A stretch of DNA of 64,000 nucleotides from Salmonella phage vB_SenS-3: the sequence record OR896822.1; one strand, 5' to 3'. Within the stretch, counting starts at the first letter, position 1; each line of letters opens with the position of its first letter. Of the stretch, positions 23,770-55,511 are shown in pieces. A program made the translations under genes and the position numbers. Below the pieces are notes generated by a model, which had not been told where the DNA came from, made no database searches, and saw only the letters and a program-made list of their open reading frames with translations.

Positions 23770-23831
23770 ATCATAGAAATTCGGGTGTTGATTAGCATCA
23801 ATCTCTATTTGATTAGGATCAACAAAATTAC

Positions 23832-45876: not shown

Positions 45877-46372
45877 AACAATACTCCTATGTTGGTTATT
45901 CGAATATCTTTCTTTAGGACTATTCAAAAGAATAGAACAACTATTACTACCATTTACACAAACATTAATCATCATCAAGCAGTATGAATAAGTTATCATA
46001 CCTCAGTGCTGCGCTCTCTTAACTCTTATCCAGATCAGAACCTAGGTCATTGGCCGCTAAGCCGATTCTGATTGCCCTCACTATCCTATTGGTAGGTGGC
46101 TACTGGACGTGTCACCATTCGCTGCTCTTTTCGTTCGCACCCCCATATAAAGCTCTGCCTATATAACGAGCTAAATATGCACGGTTTGGATTTACCTTTC
46201 CGAATTCAGGGTACGCAGATCACTTAATTGATAATTAACTAATGCAGTATAAACACTAGTAATAGTTAAAACAACCCTTAATGGGGCAGCCTAACTGTTC
46301 CGTATTGCGGACTGTAAACAAGAAAAATTAGCAAAATCAATTTTTACTAATGTCTCTCAATTCAATATAAAT

Positions 46373-46401
46373 ATTATATCAAGATTTTGAGCATCCTGCA
46401 A
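46373..46401 (-). promoter_or_regulatory. T5 early-type promoter about 480 nt upstream of primase-helicase start
   Basis: Minus strand TTGCAG-17-TATAAT followed by ATTTATATTGAATTGAGAGACA. Confidence 0.55.
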
Positions 46402-46440
46402 GTAAAATTTTTCCGAAGGTGCTATCAGTGTCCTTGAGCA

Positions 46441-46468
46441 CAGAGAAAACCGAGTCAAAATGACTCGG
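46441..46468 (-). terminator. rho-independent terminator (minus strand)
   Basis: Minus strand hairpin CCGAGTC-atttt-GACTCGG followed by TTTTCTCTG. Confidence 0.6.
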
Positions 46469-46492
46469 TAATCAGGATTGAGCTAATGAAAA

Positions 46493-49754: not shown

Positions 49755-51629
49755 TTATTTAGCGCGAATGTCTTGATGTTTCACTCGACCCATAACCTCA
49801 TGTTGTTTACCTGGGTTAAACGGACGAGCACCTGGATTTCCAAGATATCCACAAACTCGACGAGTTACCTCAAGAGTCTCAGGATCATGATTGCCACAAA
49901 TTGGGCATTTGAAACCATCCTCAGAAGCTATAGTTTCACCCAAGAACCCACATTCCCCACAAGAGTCTACTGGAGTATTAATACCGAAGTAATGAACTTT
50001 ACTTGCAGCATAGTTAATAACCCATTCCAGTGCATCAGGGAATCGTTTCATATCAGGCAATTCCACATAGGAAATGCACCCACCAGAAGCAATTGGGGTA
50101 AAGTTAGACTCATAATCGAACTTCACGTTCGGAGCAACCTTACGCTCCACATCAAGGTGATGAGAGTTAGTGTAATATCCTTTAACCAGAATATCTTCAT
50201 GCTCTGGGAAATACTCACGATCTAGACGACAGAAGCGATCACATAGAGATTCAGATGGTGTAGCATACAGACTATACCCTAATTGAGTCTCTTCCTTCTT
50301 CTGATCAGCACGATCACGCATGTATTGTAGCACACGTTGAACGAACTTGATACAGGATTCAGACATTGTATCTACATCTTTACCAAACATGAACTGTAAC
50401 ATTTCGTGGCAGCCAATATATCCTAGAGATACAGAAGCACGCTTGTAGAAATGATCAAATACATATTCATCTGGCCCCAGACGTAATCCAAAGGCTCCTG
50501 ACATATAGAGGATGGGCGCAGCTTTAGCTTGAATGTACTTTAAGCGATCAACCCTCCACTCCAATGCTTTTAACGCGGTATCCACACGCAGCTCAAGCAG
50601 ATCGAAGAATAGATCAATATTACCTTCCGCTTCGATAGCAATTCGAGGTAGGTTTACAGAAACAACGCCTAAGTTGTTACGACCAGAAGTTTCACCATCT
50701 TCCGCAGCAGCCAGGAATGAACGACAGCCCATAGAGACTTTGTAGTCTCCCGTAACTTCTACAACCTTATCATAACTGATGTAGTCAGGATACATACGTT
50801 CAGCAGTACATTTCATAGCTAACTTCTTGATATCATAGTTAACATCACCAGGTTTCATGTTTACGCCATCACGCAAAACAAATACCAGTTTAGGGAAGAT
50901 AGCTGTACGTTTATTGATACCCAAACCATCCATACGCACTTCTAGGATTGCTTTCTGTACAAGACGTGCTTCCCAAGAAGTTCCTAGACCAAACCCAAAG
51001 GTAATAAACGGACTTTGACCATTAGAGTTGAACATCGTATTGATTTCATACTCCAGGCCCTGACAGGCATCGTAAACTTCTTTCTCAGTCATTTCCGTAG
51101 CCATTACAGATGCTTTAGCTTCATCCTTAGTCCAACGCTTTGCAAACGCATGATTCTTATCATAAGACTTACGAACATAAGGAGCCAATACTTCATCTAA
51201 TCGGTCTACAGAAGTACCCCCATATTGATGTGAACTAACCTGAGTGATAATCTGAGCTGTGATAGCAGCCGCAGTAGTAATAGAGTTTGGTGTACTGATT
51301 TCAGCATTACCAACCTTCATACCATTCTTCAACATATCTTCCAAAGCAACCAGGCAACAGTTAGTCATACCTAACGCAGCGTAATCAGCATCATGGAAGT
51401 GAATATCACCAATCATGTGAGCATTTCGAATCTGGATTGGCATTTCTTCCAGAATCAGATGTTTACTCAATTCCCCTGCAAGCATGTCCCTTTGTGTAGG
51501 GAAACGTTCGCTTGGTTTGTTCGCATTATTAAAGAGTAGCTCTTCATCTGCTGATCCTTCGATAATTTCTTTGCAGTTTCGAATTAAGGACTGCACTCCT
51601 TTATACTTTAGTTCTTCATTGCGATTCAT
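49755..51629 (-). CDS. nrdD: anaerobic ribonucleoside-triphosphate reductase (class III)
   Basis: 624 aa; C-terminal glycyl-radical motif RVCGYLG; zinc ribbon CGECGF...CPICGN; GAAGGAGGG RBS. Confidence 0.85.
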   Translation of the reverse strand: MNRNEELKYKGVQSLIRNCKEIIEGSADEELLFNNANKPSERFPTQRDMLAGELSKHLILEEMPIQIRNAHMIGDIHFHDADYAALGMTNCCLVALEDMLKNGMKVGNAEISTPNSITTAAAITAQIITQVSSHQYGGTSVDRLDEVLAPYVRKSYDKNHAFAKRWTKDEAKASVMATEMTEKEVYDACQGLEYEINTMFNSNGQSPFITFGFGLGTSWEARLVQKAILEVRMDGLGINKRTAIFPKLVFVLRDGVNMKPGDVNYDIKKLAMKCTAERMYPDYISYDKVVEVTGDYKVSMGCRSFLAAAEDGETSGRNNLGVVSVNLPRIAIEAEGNIDLFFDLLELRVDTALKALEWRVDRLKYIQAKAAPILYMSGAFGLRLGPDEYVFDHFYKRASVSLGYIGCHEMLQFMFGKDVDTMSESCIKFVQRVLQYMRDRADQKKEETQLGYSLYATPSESLCDRFCRLDREYFPEHEDILVKGYYTNSHHLDVERKVAPNVKFDYESNFTPIASGGCISYVELPDMKRFPDALEWVINYAASKVHYFGINTPVDSCGECGFLGETIASEDGFKCPICGNHDPETLEVTRRVCGYLGNPGARPFNPGKQHEVMGRVKHQDIRAK

Positions 51630-51658
51630 TACACCCTCCTTCTCTAATTAAGACTACT

Positions 51659-51687
51659 ATTATAACTCATTCGAAGGCGGATGTCAA
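51659..51687 (-). promoter_or_regulatory. consensus sigma70 promoter for nrdD
   Basis: Minus strand TTGACA-17-TATAAT (perfect consensus hexamers). Confidence 0.7.
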
Positions 51688-51737
51688 CAATATTTTACCA
51701 TAAAGTTCTGTAACATGATCTGAGTCAAAAAATTTTA

Positions 51738-51766
51738 TTTGCCAACCTCTATTAAAAATAGTATAA
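51738..51766 (+). promoter_or_regulatory. sigma70 promoter (plus strand, divergent from nrdD promoter)
   Basis: TTGCCA-17-TATAAT. Confidence 0.5.
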
Positions 51767-51879
51767 TCACACGCCCGTGTACGCGATATAAAATGATTAT
51801 CTAGTACCATACATCTCCCAATAAAAGCAAGTAAATTTTTTATTTAAAAGCAATATCATGGGTTTATTTAAAATTATAC

Positions 51880-51908
51880 TTGCTTTTTGCTGTAAACCTT
51901 GTTATAAT
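51880..51908 (+). promoter_or_regulatory. T5 early-type promoter upstream of phoH
   Basis: TTGCTT-17-TATAAT followed by ATATTTGTAAGTTGAT. Confidence 0.6.
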
Positions 51909-51984
51909 ATATTTGTAAGTTGATAAACAAGATCTCTTTGTTGATCCTCTGTTAGAAGCGAAGTACACTATAGGAGTGTTATTT

Positions 51985-52737
51985 ATGGGAAAAGCACGTC
52001 AAAAAAGAGAGAACCGCAATGGTTCAAGAAAGCGTGGCAACAAGTATGATAGTAACGTAATTCAAGCAGATTTCTCTGGTGATTACGCCAATCCAGTTGC
52101 TAAATCCCTAGTTGGTAAAAACCGTGAGCAAAAATCATATATCAATATGATCAAGAACAACACAGTGACTGTTGGTATTGGTGAACCAGGTACTGGTAAA
52201 ACCTTTATTCCGTCCGTTCTTGCAGCTCAGGAACTCGTAGACATTCACTCAGATATTGAGCAAGTGATCCTCGTGCGTCCGAACGAACCTCTAGGTAAAT
52301 CTCTTGGTATGCTCCCAGGTGATCTGGCAGAAAAGCTAGAGCCTTGGTTGGAACCAATAGCCGATGGCATGAAATGGGCAATCGGTGATCACGCCTACAA
52401 AGGATATGTCGAACGTCAGAAAATTAAATTCCTGGCTATCGAACATGCCCGTGGCCGAACTTTCAACAACTCCTATGTAATTGTCGATGAAGCTCAGAAT
52501 ATCTCCGTTGAAGCAATGATCTGTCTCCTGACTCGTGTAGGACAAGATTGTCGTTTAATTATCTGTGGGGATATAGCGCAGAAAGACATCAAGGGTGATT
52601 CAGGTCTAGCACTTCTTATGGAAGTCTATGAGAAGTATGAAAACTCTCCTTTCTCTATGATCGAACTGATCGACAACGTTCGCTCACCAGAGTCTAAAGC
52701 ATTCTACGATATCTTTAAGGATATGGGGAAGGTGTAA
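51985..52737 (+). CDS. phoH: PhoH-like ATPase
   Basis: Walker A GEPGTGKT; Walker B YVIVDEAQN; ATG at 51985 with TAGGAG RBS (ORF track GTG 51976 sits within the RBS). Confidence 0.8.
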   Translation: MGKARQKRENRNGSRKRGNKYDSNVIQADFSGDYANPVAKSLVGKNREQKSYINMIKNNTVTVGIGEPGTGKTFIPSVLAAQELVDIHSDIEQVILVRPNEPLGKSLGMLPGDLAEKLEPWLEPIADGMKWAIGDHAYKGYVERQKIKFLAIEHARGRTFNNSYVIVDEAQNISVEAMICLLTRVGQDCRLIICGDIAQKDIKGDSGLALLMEVYEKYENSPFSMIELIDNVRSPESKAFYDIFKDMGKV

Positions 52738-52738
52738 T

Positions 52739-52981
52739 ATGGGAAACGTCGTACATCTGCACCGCAAAACTAAGATTCACCGTACTTCACTGAGTGCTGC
52801 TAATATGATTACACGTAAGGAAGGGGAAGAAAGTCCTAAGACTACCCTAGCGTGGAAAATTGTAGCCTCTAATCCAAATCGGCCTTTTAATTATAACGAA
52901 TTGAGTACTTCTATAGACATTCTTATGGCTAAGGAAATACGACAGAAACTAACTGATATGACCGATAAACTTAAATGGTAA
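52739..52981 (+). CDS. hypothetical protein
   Basis: 80-aa ORF between phoH and a terminator. Confidence 0.4.
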   Translation: MGNVVHLHRKTKIHRTSLSAANMITRKEGEESPKTTLAWKIVASNPNRPFNYNELSTSIDILMAKEIRQKLTDMTDKLKW

Positions 52982-52989
52982 GACAGACG

Positions 52990-53023
52990 AGCCTGGGTAT
53001 GAAAATATCCGGGCTCTTTTTAT
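52990..53023 (+). terminator. rho-independent terminator
   Basis: Hairpin GAGCCTGG-12 nt-CCGGGCTC followed by TTTTTAT. Confidence 0.6.
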
Positions 53024-53037
53024 CTGTAAAATTGTAC

Positions 53038-53066
53038 TTGCAAAATGACCCAAAACAAAGTAGAAT
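53038..53066 (+). promoter_or_regulatory. sigma70 promoter for nrdA
   Basis: TTGCAA-17-TAGAAT; overlaps the ORF-track N-terminal extension, supporting the later start. Confidence 0.55.
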
Positions 53067-53104: not shown

Positions 53105-55435
53105 ATGAGCCATCGCATCGAAAAAGTAATTAAACGTGACGGTACTGTTCAGGACTTTGCTCCTGAAAAACTCAATGATTGGGCTGCATGGGCATGTAAA
53201 GATACTGACGTAAGTTGGTCTGCCGTAGTTATGGCTGCCCTGAAAAATCTACCCAAAGGTGTTGTAGACTCCGATACACTCCAAGATGTGTTAATTAAAG
53301 CCGCTGAAGGTCTTATCAAAGACAACCCAGCATATGATACTGTAGCAAAGGAATTACGTCTTGCGCAGATGCGTAAACGCCTATATGATTCCTTTGAACC
53401 TCCTTCTCTGCGTTTCTTCCACGATCATATGATTCGTGTTGGCGCCTGGGAAGACATGAGTGCATGGATTAGCGATGATCAGTTTGATGCTCTGAATCAA
53501 GTTATTGATCATGATCGCGATCGTTTATTCACCAGTGGTGGACTGAAACAGTTCTTCGACAAGTATTCCCGTCGTAATATTGCAACTGGTGAAATTTATG
53601 AAACCCCGCAGTTTGCCTACATGGGTATGGCAATGGCGATGTTATCTCAACCTAACTGGACAATTCTCGATGCAATCGACCTCTACAACGCAATGTCACT
53701 CCATAAAATCAACGTGCCGACTCCACCTCTCGTGGGTCTTAGGAGCAGCGACCGCGGTTTTGCTTCTTGTTGTCTTGTTGATAGTACTGATACCCTCGAT
53801 TCAATCGACACAGCCGAGCACATCGTCTTCAAAATGGTCGCAGCCAGAGCGGGAATCGGGTATCATCTTGAAAGCCGATCAATTGCTGATCCGGTGCGAA
53901 ATGGGGCATTCCCGCATTCCGGAAAACTGCCATATTATCGACACATTGACCGATCAGTAAAAGCTAACACTCAGCAAACCCGTGGTGGTTCTGCTACTGT
54001 GTCTTACCCATACTTCGATCCTGAAATCATTCAGTTGATGCAGGTTAAGCAGCAACGTGCTACAGACGAGAATAAAATCGATAAGATGGATTACTCTCTG
54101 AGCTTTAACAACCTTCTGTTAAAACGTTACCTGAAAAATGAAGATATTACGCTAATGTCCTACTTCTACGCACCAGAAGTTCATGAAGCGTTTTATGGCG
54201 AAGATGAGGCTAAGTTTGAAGAAATCTACGTGGCAGCGGAGAAACGTGTGGCATCTCTTACAAAGATCGACCACGAAGGAAAAACAATTCCAGCAGCTCC
54301 TAGAATCTCTGCAAAAGAAATCCTAGATACTTGGTTACGTATCCGTATGGAAACAGGGCGTATGTATGCTCATCACATTGGTGAATCTAACCGTCATGGT
54401 AACTTCCTTGACCCGATTCGTATGACCAACCTTTGTGTTGAAATTACTCAGCCAACCCGTCCATTCCATCACATTACGGAGCTGTATAAGACCCAAGATC
54501 AGTTAGACGATATGCGTCCAGAAGATATTGGTGAAGTATCTCTGTGTAACTTAGGTGGTGTTGTACTAGGTCGTATGGAATCTCTGGCTGAATGGGAGAA
54601 AACTTGCTACATTCTTCTGAAATTCGTTGATACAATCATCGAGATTCAGGATTACCCATTCCCAACTATGGAGTACACGGCTAAGAAACGTCGTAACGTT
54701 GGTATTGGTCTGATGAACGCAGCAGGTGCAATGGCAGCAGAAGGTTTGGCTTACGAAGGTGTTGAAGCCCGTAACTGGATTCACCGTGAAGCTGAAAAGC
54801 TGTCCTACTTCCTACATAAAGCCTCTGTACGTCTGGCTAAAGAACAAGGTGCATGTGACTGGTTTAATCGTACTAAGCCTTCGCAAGGAACTCTGGTAAT
54901 CGACACGTACAAGAAAACTGTTGATGAACTGGTAACTGTAGGTCTAGAAATGGATTGGGAATCTCTGCGTGCAGATATTCTGAAATATGGTATGCGCAAC
55001 TCTGTTCTGACTGCTCAGATGCCAGGTGAAAGTTCCTCTGTACTGCTAGGTGTTACTAACTCTATCGAACCGCCCCGTAAGATCGTATCTATCAAGGGTA
55101 GTGCAGTGAATAAAGTAATTGCAATTGCTCCAGGTGCAACTGATTGGGATACATTAATGAGCTATAAACTGGCTTATGATGTAGATCGTATCGAGTGGAT
55201 CAAATGGGTAGCAACCATGCAGAAATTATTCAGCCAGTCTATCAGTACGAATATGTACTATGACTACACCAAGTTCGAGAATGAAATCATTCCCGGCCCA
55301 GTAGTAGTTCGTGACTTTATGACTGCTGTTAAGTACGGTTGGAAAACTTGGTACTACGCTAACTTCAACACTGAAAATGGTGGTGGAGCTGGTGAAGAAG
55401 CAGCAGGTTGTGCATCAGGTGGTTGTAACCTATAA
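53105..55435 (+). CDS. nrdA: ribonucleoside-diphosphate reductase alpha subunit (class Ia)
   Basis: ATP-cone start MSHRIEKVIKRDG; uninterrupted 776-aa frame; AAGGAAAG RBS; C-terminal Cys/Gly-rich tail. Confidence 0.85.
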   Translation: MSHRIEKVIKRDGTVQDFAPEKLNDWAAWACKDTDVSWSAVVMAALKNLPKGVVDSDTLQDVLIKAAEGLIKDNPAYDTVAKELRLAQMRKRLYDSFEPPSLRFFHDHMIRVGAWEDMSAWISDDQFDALNQVIDHDRDRLFTSGGLKQFFDKYSRRNIATGEIYETPQFAYMGMAMAMLSQPNWTILDAIDLYNAMSLHKINVPTPPLVGLRSSDRGFASCCLVDSTDTLDSIDTAEHIVFKMVAARAGIGYHLESRSIADPVRNGAFPHSGKLPYYRHIDRSVKANTQQTRGGSATVSYPYFDPEIIQLMQVKQQRATDENKIDKMDYSLSFNNLLLKRYLKNEDITLMSYFYAPEVHEAFYGEDEAKFEEIYVAAEKRVASLTKIDHEGKTIPAAPRISAKEILDTWLRIRMETGRMYAHHIGESNRHGNFLDPIRMTNLCVEITQPTRPFHHITELYKTQDQLDDMRPEDIGEVSLCNLGGVVLGRMESLAEWEKTCYILLKFVDTIIEIQDYPFPTMEYTAKKRRNVGIGLMNAAGAMAAEGLAYEGVEARNWIHREAEKLSYFLHKASVRLAKEQGACDWFNRTKPSQGTLVIDTYKKTVDELVTVGLEMDWESLRADILKYGMRNSVLTAQMPGESSSVLLGVTNSIEPPRKIVSIKGSAVNKVIAIAPGATDWDTLMSYKLAYDVDRIEWIKWVATMQKLFSQSISTNMYYDYTKFENEIIPGPVVVRDFMTAVKYGWKTWYYANFNTENGGGAGEEAAGCASGGCNL

Positions 55436-55444
55436 TAAAAACAA

Positions 55445-55470
55445 GGAGATCTTCGGGTCTCCTTTTTTCT
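55445..55470 (+). terminator. rho-independent terminator after nrdA
   Basis: Hairpin AGGAGATC-TTCG-GGTCTCCT followed by TTTTTT. Confidence 0.7.
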
Positions 55471-55482
55471 TTGAAATTTTAC

Positions 55483-55511
55483 TTGCTAATCTCTACCAGA
55501 TTTGCTATAAT
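55483..55511 (+). promoter_or_regulatory. T5 early-type promoter for nrdB
   Basis: TTGCTA-17-TATAAT with TG extension (TGCTATAAT). Confidence 0.65.

What the first reader, a model, noticed from the sequence alone, without database searches (positions are those of the whole stretch)
51630..51984. Divergent promoter hub between nrdD (-) and phoH/nrdAB (+)
Within about 350 nt there is a perfect-consensus TTGACA-17-TATAAT promoter on the minus strand for nrdD, and two plus-strand promoters (TTGCCA-17-TATAAT at 51738 and TTGCTT-17-TATAAT at 51880) for the phoH-nrdAB unit. This very AT-rich region marks the switch between the minus-strand and plus-strand early modules and may also contain origin-like or regulatory elements.
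Basis: seen in the sequence. Interest (0 to 1): 0.35.

Follow-up and report, generated by a model that had tools for sequence, protein, structure and literature searches.

The report
Divergent nrdD / phoH promoter region
This is an ordinary, well-conserved control region of a T5-like Salmonella phage: three host-type promoters fire in opposite directions into the anaerobic ribonucleotide reductase gene and the phoH gene. The T5 reference genome already marks the same three promoters, and the only new lead is a possible binding site for the host oxygen sensor FNR.

Summary
The window is a T5-like Epseptimavirus, 100% identical here to phages vaffelhjerte and polluks.

**Observation:** confirmed. 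All three promoter-like sites exist.
- **P1 (-):** TTGACA-17-TATAAT at 51687..51659, the only 12/12 site in the 64 kb.
- **P2 (+):** TTGCCA-17-TATAAT at 51739..51767.
- **P3 (+):** TTGCTT-17-TGtTATAAT at 51880..51908, followed by the ATATT signature of T5 early promoters.

The region is the most AT-rich 200 nt of the window and is the strand-switch point. Across about 33 relatives the hexamers and spacing are kept while the spacers diverge. The T5 RefSeq record already annotates three promoters at the homologous places, so this is known.

- phoH plus a DUF7430 ORF end at a conserved terminator (52989-53016).
- nrdA and nrdB each have their own promoter.
- nrdD is monocistronic.
- P2 is missing in about a quarter of relatives, whereas P3 is invariant.
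- I found no iterons, DnaA boxes, tandem repeats, NrdR boxes or Rfam hits. An origin is unsupported but not excluded.

**New lead:** a palindrome matching the FNR consensus (window ATGATctgaGTCAA, 51715-51728; perfect in two relatives). Its centre is always 34 nt upstream of P1's -35, about -70 from the start site.

The parts
49755..51629 (-). nrdD, the anaerobic class III ribonucleotide reductase gene, transcribed from P1
   Evidence: ORF. Pfam NRDD E 1.4e-172 and Gly_radical. Annotated as nrdD in the identical phage records.
49724..49748 (-). Terminator-like hairpin directly after the nrdD stop codon, which makes nrdD a monocistronic unit
   Evidence: 10-bp stem with 6 GC pairs and a T-rich tail. 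T5 annotates a terminator at the homologous place.
51634..51641 (-). Shine-Dalgarno AAGGAGGG of nrdD
   Evidence: Read from the sequence.
51659..51687 (-). P1, the nrdD promoter: TTGACA-17-TATAAT (12/12). The start site is inferred at about 51650-51654.
   Evidence: the only perfect match in the window. The hexamers are 12/12 in most of the 33 relatives compared (11/12 in three), with at least 10 different spacers and always 17 nt. Variable columns: 2/12 in the hexamers against 16/17 in the spacer, Fisher p = 3e-5. T5 annotates the 'nrdD promoter' at the homologous place.
51715..51728 (.). FNR-type palindrome ATGATctgaGTCAA (8/10 to TTGAT-N4-ATCAA). Its centre is 34 nt from the upstream edge of P1's -35, about -70 from the P1 start site.
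   Evidence: The offset is the same in 9 distinct haplotypes, including Klebsiella Sugarlandvirus. Two relatives carry the perfect consensus. In an unbiased scan it is the best-conserved palindrome of any kind in the 62 nt upstream of P1.
51739..51767 (+). P2, the upstream phoH promoter: TTGCCA-17-TATAAT (11/12), preceded by AAAAAATTTTAT. The start site is inferred at about 51774.
   Evidence: Present in 22 of about 34 relatives. The -35 varies (TTGCCA, TTGCTA, TTGACA, TTGCTT), the -10 is invariant, and two lineages have unrelated spacers. Fisher p = 3e-4. T5 annotates a promoter here.
51768..51785 (+). GC-rich discriminator and initial transcribed block of P2 (cacacgcccgtgtacgcg)
   Evidence: a GC-rich, CGCG-type block is kept in this position, though not in sequence, in T5, My1, Sugarlandvirus, PM135 and a Vibrio relative.
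51791..51806 (.). Conserved block AAATGATTATCTAGTA. It is the left edge of the segment shared by all T5-like relatives, so it marks a mosaic junction. Function unknown.
   Evidence: It is kept even in Pectobacterium phage My1, whose PhoH is only 66% identical. It occurs once in the window.
51823..51887 (+). AT-rich inverted repeat and hairpin ending in TTTTT, overlapping P3's -35. It is strong only in this haplotype.
   Evidence: -15.6 kcal/mol, z = -2.3 in the window; -9.3 kcal/mol, z = 0.1 in T5.
51880..51913 (+). P3, the proximal phoH promoter of the T5 early class: TTGCTT-17-TGtTATAAT plus an ATATT discriminator. The start site is inferred at about 51915.
   Evidence: Hexamers and ATATTT are invariant in all 30 Markadamsvirinae sequences while 9/17 spacer columns vary (p = 0.003). 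My1, Sugarlandvirus and PM135 keep a promoter at this place. ATATT is the early-promoter signature described in PMC7472727. Annotated in T5, AKFV33 and BF23.
51985..52737 (+). phoH (PhoH-like ATPase); Shine-Dalgarno AGGAG at 51972-51976
   Evidence: PF02562, E 1.8e-61.
52739..52981 (+). 80-aa DUF7430 ORF, co-transcribed with phoH
   Evidence: PF24207, E 1e-39.
52989..53016 (+). Intrinsic terminator closing the phoH unit
   Evidence: 12-bp stem, 6 GC pairs, tail TTTTTATC. Conserved in T5, phiR201 and Sugarlandvirus, with both arms of the stem differing between them. AKFV33 annotates a terminator here.
53038..53066 (+). nrdA's own promoter, TTGCAA-17-TAGAAT, preceded by AAAATTGTAC. The nrdA ATG is at 53105.
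   Evidence: conserved in phiR201, Sugarlandvirus and, for the -35 part, in T5.

Best explanation
The 355-nt nrdD-phoH spacer is a back-to-back sigma-70 promoter region of a T5-like phage, read by unmodified host RNA polymerase.

- P1 is a perfect consensus promoter. It drives a short-leadered, monocistronic nrdD message leftward, which ends at the hairpin at 49748-49724.
- Two tandem promoters drive phoH plus a DUF7430 ORF rightward, up to the terminator at 52989-53016.
- P3 is the constant, main promoter. It belongs to the T5 early class: AAAATT upstream tract, TTGCTT, extended -10, ATATT discriminator.
- P2 lies about 140 nt further upstream. It is an accessory promoter with a different, GC-rich discriminator, and some lineages have lost it.
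- nrdA and nrdB are separate units with their own promoters.

Shown: sequence matches, their rarity, placement, conservation pattern, terminators, and the prior annotation in T5.

Inferred: that each site actually initiates, the exact start sites, and any difference in timing or regulation between P2 and P3.
For: - Matches and rarity.
- All three share the T5 promoter architecture seen at about 17 other intergenic sites in the window.
- Hexamers and spacer length are conserved while spacers diverge: Fisher tests.
- P1 stays 11-12/12 in other genera (Sugarlandvirus, Novosibvirus, Hongcheonvirus, My1), even where a homing-endonuclease gene sits between it and nrdD.
- T5 RefSeq annotates three promoters at the homologous positions. 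AKFV33 and BF23 annotate P3 and/or P1.
- The ATATT early-promoter signature is described in PMC7472727.
- Terminators and downstream promoters.
- Gene identities.
Against: - I found no transcription-start data for this phage or for these T5 sites in the literature searched. The T5 annotations are themselves predictions.
- P3's -35 is only 3/6.
- At a lenient threshold the count of promoter-like sites here is not above chance.
- P2 is absent in 9 of about 34 relatives, and its -10 is degenerate in My1 and Sugarlandvirus. P2 may therefore be weak or dispensable.
Confidence: 0.85

Rival explanations
1. The region is, or contains, a replication origin. This could be a transcription-primed origin of the T7 or T4 kind, in which a strong promoter (P2) is followed by a GC-rich block and then an easily melted AT-rich stretch.
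For: - Most AT-rich 200 nt of the window, with the cumulative GC-skew minimum at 51819.
- Strong promoters with a GC-rich then AT-rich downstream arrangement, kept in position across genera.
- The homologous T5 site lies at about 44% of the genome. From memory, Bourguignon et al. 1976 placed the first-round origin near the centre of T5 DNA; that paper could not be read here.
Against: - No iterons, tandem repeats or DnaA boxes.
- The skew minimum coincides with the switch of gene orientation, which explains it on its own.
- P2 and the GC block are missing in 9 of about 34 relatives, which is odd for an essential origin.
- No exceptional curvature in a crude model.
- A larger non-coding region next to the origin-binding helicase gene (about 45880-46490) is at least as good a candidate.
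Confidence: 0.08
2. P2 does not serve phoH. It makes a short non-coding RNA of about 115 nt, or an attenuated leader, that ends at the hairpin and U-run at 51823-51892.
For: In this haplotype the hairpin is stable (-15.6 kcal/mol, z = -2.3) and is followed by UUUUU.
Against: - The hairpin is not conserved: -9.3 kcal/mol and z = 0.1 in T5, and a different fold in phiR201.
- The two arm substitutions between haplotypes are not compensatory.
- No Rfam match.
- The 51791-51880 segment is conserved even in lineages without P2.
Confidence: 0.1
3. The intergenic region encodes small proteins, as some GenBank records annotate: a 47-aa ORF at 51667..51810 (-) and a 34-aa ORF at about 51865..51969 (-).
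For: Annotated as hypothetical proteins in vB_SenS-3, RA40, PMBT36 and others.
Against: The 47-aa ORF is absent from T5, phiR201, My1, PM135 and the L005 and L020 types. The same-sized Sugarlandvirus ORF is unrelated in sequence. Both ORFs overlap the promoters on the opposite strand.
Confidence: 0.03
4. The consensus matches are chance products of an AT-rich spacer and do not initiate transcription.
For: AT-rich DNA is full of -10-like words, and the lenient scan shows no excess of sites.
Against: - A 12/12 and an 11/12 site lie within 110 nt, against 0.9 expected in the whole window.
- Each is correctly oriented and placed before its gene.
- The hexamers are kept while spacers are replaced.
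Confidence: 0.04

Closest known systems
The three promoters annotated in the nrdD-phoH spacer of phage T5 (NC_005859: 53638-53712 and 53776-53850 on the minus strand, 53884-53958 on the plus strand)
   Same: Homologous DNA, 89% mean column identity over the spacer. Same genes, order and orientation, same hexamers, and the same number of promoters.
   Different: - T5 has an 18-nt insertion upstream of P2, and TTGCTA instead of TTGCCA.
- T5's FNR-type box is weaker (7/10).
- T5 lacks the stable hairpin.
- The T5 features are predictions without names. The classical named promoters (P-N25, P-N26, P-K28a/b) lie elsewhere.
T5 early promoter class (Wang et al. 2005 consensus TTGCTT-N17-18-TATAATA, as quoted in the AKFV33 record; ATATT discriminator, Klimuk et al. 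2020, PMC7472727)
   Same: P3 has every feature: an upstream AAAATT tract, TTGCTT, a 17-nt spacer, TATAAT and ATATT. About 17 other sites in the window share this architecture.
   Different: P1 has a full TTGACA -35 and an AGTAGT discriminator. P2 has a GC-rich discriminator (CACACGC). Neither fits the early signature downstream of the -10.
E. coli / Salmonella nrdDG promoter, activated anaerobically by FNR (Roca et al. 2008 and Boston & Atlung 2003, as cited in PMC2892513 and PMC4009431)
   Same: Same gene function. A TTGAT-N4-ATCAA-type palindrome lies upstream of the promoter. The host copy, read in MG1655, is TTGAGctacATCAA plus TTGATgcaaAGCAC.
   Different: - The host has two boxes 31 bp apart. 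From memory they sit at about -64.5 and -33.5, the latter overlapping a weak -35. The host also has NrdR boxes.
- The phage has one box at about -70, a perfect core promoter and no NrdR boxes.
- FNR binding to the phage site is untested.
Transcription-primed phage origins: the T7 primary origin (promoters 1.1A/B plus an AT-rich region) and T4 oriF / oriG (promoter plus downstream unwinding element). Recalled from established knowledge.
   Same: A strong promoter followed by an AT-rich, easily melted stretch.
   Different: There is no evidence of initiation here. The element is dispensable in relatives, and no mapped T5 origin sequence exists to compare with.

Membership tests
Sigma-70 promoter | -35 and -10 hexamers close to TTGACA / TATAAT, separated by 16-18 nt | tested here: met
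   P1 is 12/12, P2 is 11/12, and P3 is 9/12 plus a TGn extended -10. All have 17-nt spacers.
Sigma-70 promoter | Placed upstream of, and oriented toward, a gene, with conservation of the elements rather than of the surrounding DNA | tested here: met
   Fisher tests of hexamer against spacer variability give p = 3e-5, 3e-4 and 3e-3.
Sigma-70 promoter | Transcription initiates there in vivo or in vitro | not testable with these tools
   I found no TSS data for T5-like phages at this locus.
T5 early promoter class | TTGCTw -35, TATAAT(A), ATATT discriminator, upstream AAAATT tract | tested here: met
   Met by P3 only. P1 and P2 fail the discriminator criterion.
FNR-dependent promoter | Palindrome matching TTGAT-N4-ATCAA | tested here: inconclusive
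   The window copy is 8/10. Relatives score 7-10/10, with a perfect match in two. It is the best-conserved palindrome upstream of P1. Sites with 8/10 are common by chance: about 59 are expected per window.
FNR-dependent promoter | Site centred at an activating position (about -41.5, -61.5, -71.5 and so on) | tested here: inconclusive
   The centre is a fixed 34 nt from the edge of the -35, which gives -69.5 to -71.5 depending on the unknown start site. The list of activating positions is recalled from memory (Wing et al. 1995).
FNR-dependent promoter | FNR binds, and expression depends on fnr and anaerobiosis | not testable with these tools
   Requires EMSA or footprinting and reporter assays.
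NrdR regulon | Two 16-bp NrdR boxes (acaCwAtATaTwGtgt) near the promoter | tested here: not met
   The best matches have 5-6 mismatches out of 16 at the nrdD, phoH, nrdA and nrdB promoters.
Replication origin | Iterons, initiator boxes or DnaA boxes | tested here: not met
   Only two-copy repeats of 9-14 nt, no tandem repeats, and no DnaA box with at most 1 mismatch in 51600-52000.
Replication origin | AT-rich unwinding element | tested here: met
   25.5% GC, the lowest in the window. This is not specific to origins.
Replication origin | Replication initiates there | not testable with these tools
   No mapped T5 origin sequence was available.
Known RNA families (Rfam) | Covariance-model match at or above the gathering score | tested here: not met
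   Best hit 19.6 bits against a gathering score of 35. All E-values are above 0.2.
T5 major nick site | Consensus R/GCGCRGG (PMC3517423) | tested here: not met
   There is no GCGC in 51630-51984.

The most novel reading that the evidence does not exclude
T5-like phages of enterobacteria wire their anaerobic ribonucleotide reductase gene to the host oxygen sensor. Under this reading, FNR bound to a palindrome fixed at about -70 upstream of the otherwise constitutive-looking P1 modulates nrdD transcription under anoxia. Because the site overlaps P2's upstream element, FNR might also damp P2. That would be a phage promoter borrowing the same host regulator that controls the host's own nrdDG. I found no paper linking T5-like phages and FNR.
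Probability: 0.35. Interest if true: 0.45.

Novelty: already known. Interest (0 to 1): 0.2.

Why it matters
As a promoter region it matters little. It is the homologue of an already annotated T5 feature and behaves like the other T5-type promoters in the window.

Three modest points are useful:
- **Transcription units.** The units around the nucleotide-metabolism genes are smaller than assumed: nrdD alone, phoH plus DUF7430, nrdA and nrdB. Each has its own promoter and terminator.
- **Mis-annotated ORFs.** Small 'hypothetical proteins' annotated in this spacer in several GenBank records are very probably errors.
- **Possible FNR link.** If the FNR-type box is real, it would show a strictly lytic phage reading the host's oxygen status to time an oxygen-sensitive enzyme. 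That is cheaply testable.

Tried and rejected
- **Rfam scan of 50800-52800:** nothing near threshold.
- **NrdR boxes at all four nrd/phoH promoters:** none.
- **DnaA boxes, iterons, tandem repeats:** none in the region.
- **Small ORFs in the spacer:** not conserved.
- **Hairpin 51823-51887 as a conserved terminator or attenuator:** rejected. It is weak in T5 and the arm changes are not compensatory. The P3 leader fold is not better than shuffles.
- **T5 nick site (R/GCGCRGG):** absent.
- **Exact search for the conserved 15-mer in IMG/VR:** swamped by chance hits and uninformative.
- **IMG/VR search for the P1 + FNR-box architecture:** returned only T5-like contigs plus unrelated metagenomic hits without nrdD or phoH.
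- **A fourth, minus-strand promoter using the conserved block as its -10:** rejected. The key A at position 2 of the would-be -10 varies between lineages (reading).
- **A Pho box near P2, and a class II FNR geometry for a plus-strand promoter:** neither is convincing or conserved (own reading).
- **Papers:** Bourguignon 1976 and Boston & Atlung 2003 are not held.

Full report
**What the window is.** Region 51400-52200 is 100% identical to Salmonella phages vaffelhjerte, polluks and RA40 (Demerecviridae, Markadamsvirinae, Epseptimavirus). It matches 441 T5-like phage records. The window runs in reverse orientation relative to the T5 reference map.

The finding sits between two genes:
- nrdD, 49755-51629 on the minus strand (Pfam NRDD, E 1e-172).
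- phoH, ATG at 51985 on the plus strand (Pfam PhoH, E 2e-61).

**Check of the observation.** All three sites are present.
- P1 (-): TTGACA 51687-51682, 17 nt, TATAAT 51664-51659.
- P2 (+): TTGCCA 51739-51744, 17 nt, TATAAT 51762-51767.
- P3 (+): TTGCTT 51880-51885, 17 nt, TATAAT 51903-51908. It has TG at 51900-51901 (an extended -10) and ATATT at 51909-51913.

P1 is the only 12/12 site in the 64 kb. With at most one mismatch there are 6 sites against 0.9 expected, and no shuffle out of 100 reached 6. Two of those six are in this 355-nt spacer. At a lenient 9/12 threshold the number of sites is not above chance. The argument therefore rests on quality, placement and conservation.

The 200-nt window starting at 51728 is the most AT-rich of the whole 64 kb (25.5% GC). 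The cumulative GC skew reaches its minimum at 51819.

**Conservation.** I compared the window with 29 IMG/VR loci found through PhoH and with phiR201, BF23, Klebsiella Sugarlandvirus, Proteus PM135, Pectobacterium My1 and DU_PP_V, and a Vibrio relative.

- P1 keeps TTGACA-17-TATAAT, at 12/12 in most relatives and 11/12 in three, with at least ten unrelated spacers. This includes other genera, and lineages in which a homing-endonuclease gene sits between P1 and nrdD.
- P3's hexamers and ATATTT are invariant in all Markadamsvirinae while 9 of 17 spacer columns vary. My1, Sugarlandvirus and PM135 keep a promoter at the same place.
- P2 is present in 22 of about 34 sequences. Its -10 is invariant, its -35 varies (TTGCCA, TTGCTA, TTGACA, TTGCTT), and two lineages have completely different spacers. 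It is missing in nine sequences and degenerate in My1 and Sugarlandvirus.
- Fisher tests of hexamer against spacer variability give p = 3e-5 for P1, 3e-4 for P2 and 3e-3 for P3.

**Prior knowledge.** The T5 RefSeq record annotates three promoters in the homologous spacer. Two face phoH and one is labelled for nrdD, and the alignment places them on P3, P2 and P1. AKFV33 annotates P3 by 'similarity to T5 promoter consensus TTGCTT (N17-18) TATAATA (Wang et al. 2005)'. BF23 annotates P1 and P3. Klimuk et al. 2020 state that all known T5 early promoters carry ATATT in the discriminator (PMC7472727). P3 does; P1 (AGTAGT) and P2 (CACACG) do not. About 17 other intergenic sites in the window share P3's architecture. 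I found no start-site data for this locus.

**Transcription units.**
- After phoH and an 80-aa DUF7430 ORF there is a 12-bp-stem terminator at 52989-53016 with a T-run.
- It is followed by AAAATTGTAC-TTGCAA-17-TAGAAT (53038-53066) and then an RBS and ATG at 53105 for nrdA.
- The terminator and promoter are conserved in T5, phiR201 and Sugarlandvirus, and both arms of the terminator stem differ between them.
- nrdB has its own promoter at 55483, after a terminator at 55443-55464.
- nrdD is followed at once by a terminator (49748-49724) and another promoter (49713), as annotated in T5.

**Origin hypothesis.** Apart from AT-richness and the skew minimum, which coincides with the change in gene orientation, nothing origin-like was found. 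There are no iterons, tandem repeats or DnaA boxes, and a crude model showed no unusual curvature. The left half of the spacer is replaceable in relatives. The T5 literature available here says only that multiple internal origins were seen by electron microscopy (PMC3632103). The original paper is not held. I rate the origin idea at under 10%. The non-coding region next to the origin-binding helicase gene (about 45880-46490) is an equal or better candidate.

**What else is in the spacer.**

(a) An FNR-type palindrome.
- The window carries ATGATctgaGTCAA at 51715-51728, which is 8/10 to TTGAT-N4-ATCAA.
- In nine distinct haplotypes, including Klebsiella Sugarlandvirus, a TTGAY-N4-RTCAA box has its centre exactly 34 nt from the upstream edge of P1's -35. 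Its distance to P2 ranges from 15 to 35 nt.
- Two relatives carry the perfect consensus. T5 itself has only 7/10.
- In an unbiased scan of every 5-N(0-8)-5 palindrome at every offset upstream of P1, the best-conserved one was TTGAT-N4-ATCAA at that offset. Its mean was 8.78/10, and no other offset exceeded 4.8.
- The position corresponds to about -69.5 to -71.5.
- The host nrdDG operon is FNR-activated (PMC2892513, PMC4009431). Its two boxes are visible in MG1655.
- The box is absent from My1, DU_PP_V, PM135 and the L005-type lineage.
- This is a lead, not a demonstration. Sites with 8/10 are common by chance, and P1 hardly needs an activator.

(b) A GC-rich, CGCG-type block follows P2's -10. 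It is kept in position but not in sequence across genera. It makes P2's discriminator GC-rich, unlike the early class. It is not a T5 nick site.

(c) A block AAATGATTATCTAGTA at 51791-51806 marks the left edge of the segment shared by all relatives. A 27-nt version is identical between My1 and some Markadamsvirinae, although their PhoH proteins are only 66% identical. Its function is unknown.

(d) A hairpin at 51823-51887 is stable only in this haplotype.

(e) The small ORFs annotated in some records are not conserved.

**Verdict.** It reproduces what is already annotated for T5. The unit structure needs correcting, and the origin suggestion has no support from sequence. The FNR-type box is the only element that might be new.

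Noticed in passing
window 51768-51785; L029, L154, L155, L157, L167: A GC-rich, CGCG-type block, largely alternating purine-pyrimidine, follows the P2 -10 position and is itself followed by TATAAA- or TATAAT-like text. It is kept in position, not in sequence, from T5-likes to Pectobacterium, Klebsiella, Proteus and Vibrio relatives. In My1 and Sugarlandvirus the hexamer at P2's -10 place is the poor TTATTC. Function unknown; possibilities are a stringent-type discriminator, a Z-DNA-prone sink between divergent promoters, or a protein binding site.
   Followed up: partly
window 51791-51806: AAATGATTATCTAGTA is the left boundary of the DNA shared by all T5-like relatives. A 27-nt version is identical in My1 and the L005-type phages despite only 66% PhoH identity. 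In SSP1 an HNH gene is inserted immediately to its left. It occurs once in the window.
   Followed up: partly
relatives L005, L008, L011, L014, L015, L019, L020, L030, L032; L013 (SSP1); L153 (phiR201): Homing-endonuclease-type genes occupy the nrdD 5' side or the spacer in many relatives: T5orf172 / MUG113 plus treble-clef zinc finger, or HNH. They are transcribed from P1, and the nrdD alleles downstream of them differ (59-86% identity). The spacer is a recombination and mosaic junction.
   Followed up: partly
window 52989-53066: A conserved strong terminator is followed by a T5-type promoter in front of nrdA. This supports the ATG at 53105 as the nrdA start rather than the longer ORF from 53045.
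   Followed up: yes
window about 45880-46492: A non-coding stretch of about 500-600 nt lies upstream of the UL9-like 'replication origin binding' helicase gene. It has a promoter at 46401 (-) that would give a very long leader, and a 21-nt inverted repeat (45939-45959 / 46247-46267). Two of the three most curved 120-bp windows in a crude model are here. No Rfam hit. It is a candidate origin or regulatory region.
   Followed up: partly
window 23788-23801 and 23809-23822: Two perfect TTGAT-N4-ATCAA palindromes (TTGATTAGCATCAA and TTGATTAGGATCAA) lie 21 bp apart between dut and a 58-aa ORF, where about 0.16 perfect sites are expected per window by my own base-composition estimate. They are not present at the homologous place in T5.
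   Followed up: partly
L155 (PM135), L029 (My1), L167 (DU_PP_V), about 34 nt upstream of P1's -35: Where the enterobacterial phages have the FNR-type box, the Proteus and Pectobacterium phages carry TGTTAATATTTTGTTA or TGTTAAATTT(A/G)TGTAA on the P1 strand. This resembles the ArcA direct-repeat box, whose consensus I recalled from memory. It could be chance in AT-rich DNA.
   Followed up: no
window 51667-51810 (-) and about 51865-51969 (-): Several GenBank records annotate hypothetical proteins here, for example vB_SenS-3, RA40 and PMBT36. The ORFs are not conserved and overlap the promoters, so they are probably mis-annotations.
   Followed up: yes
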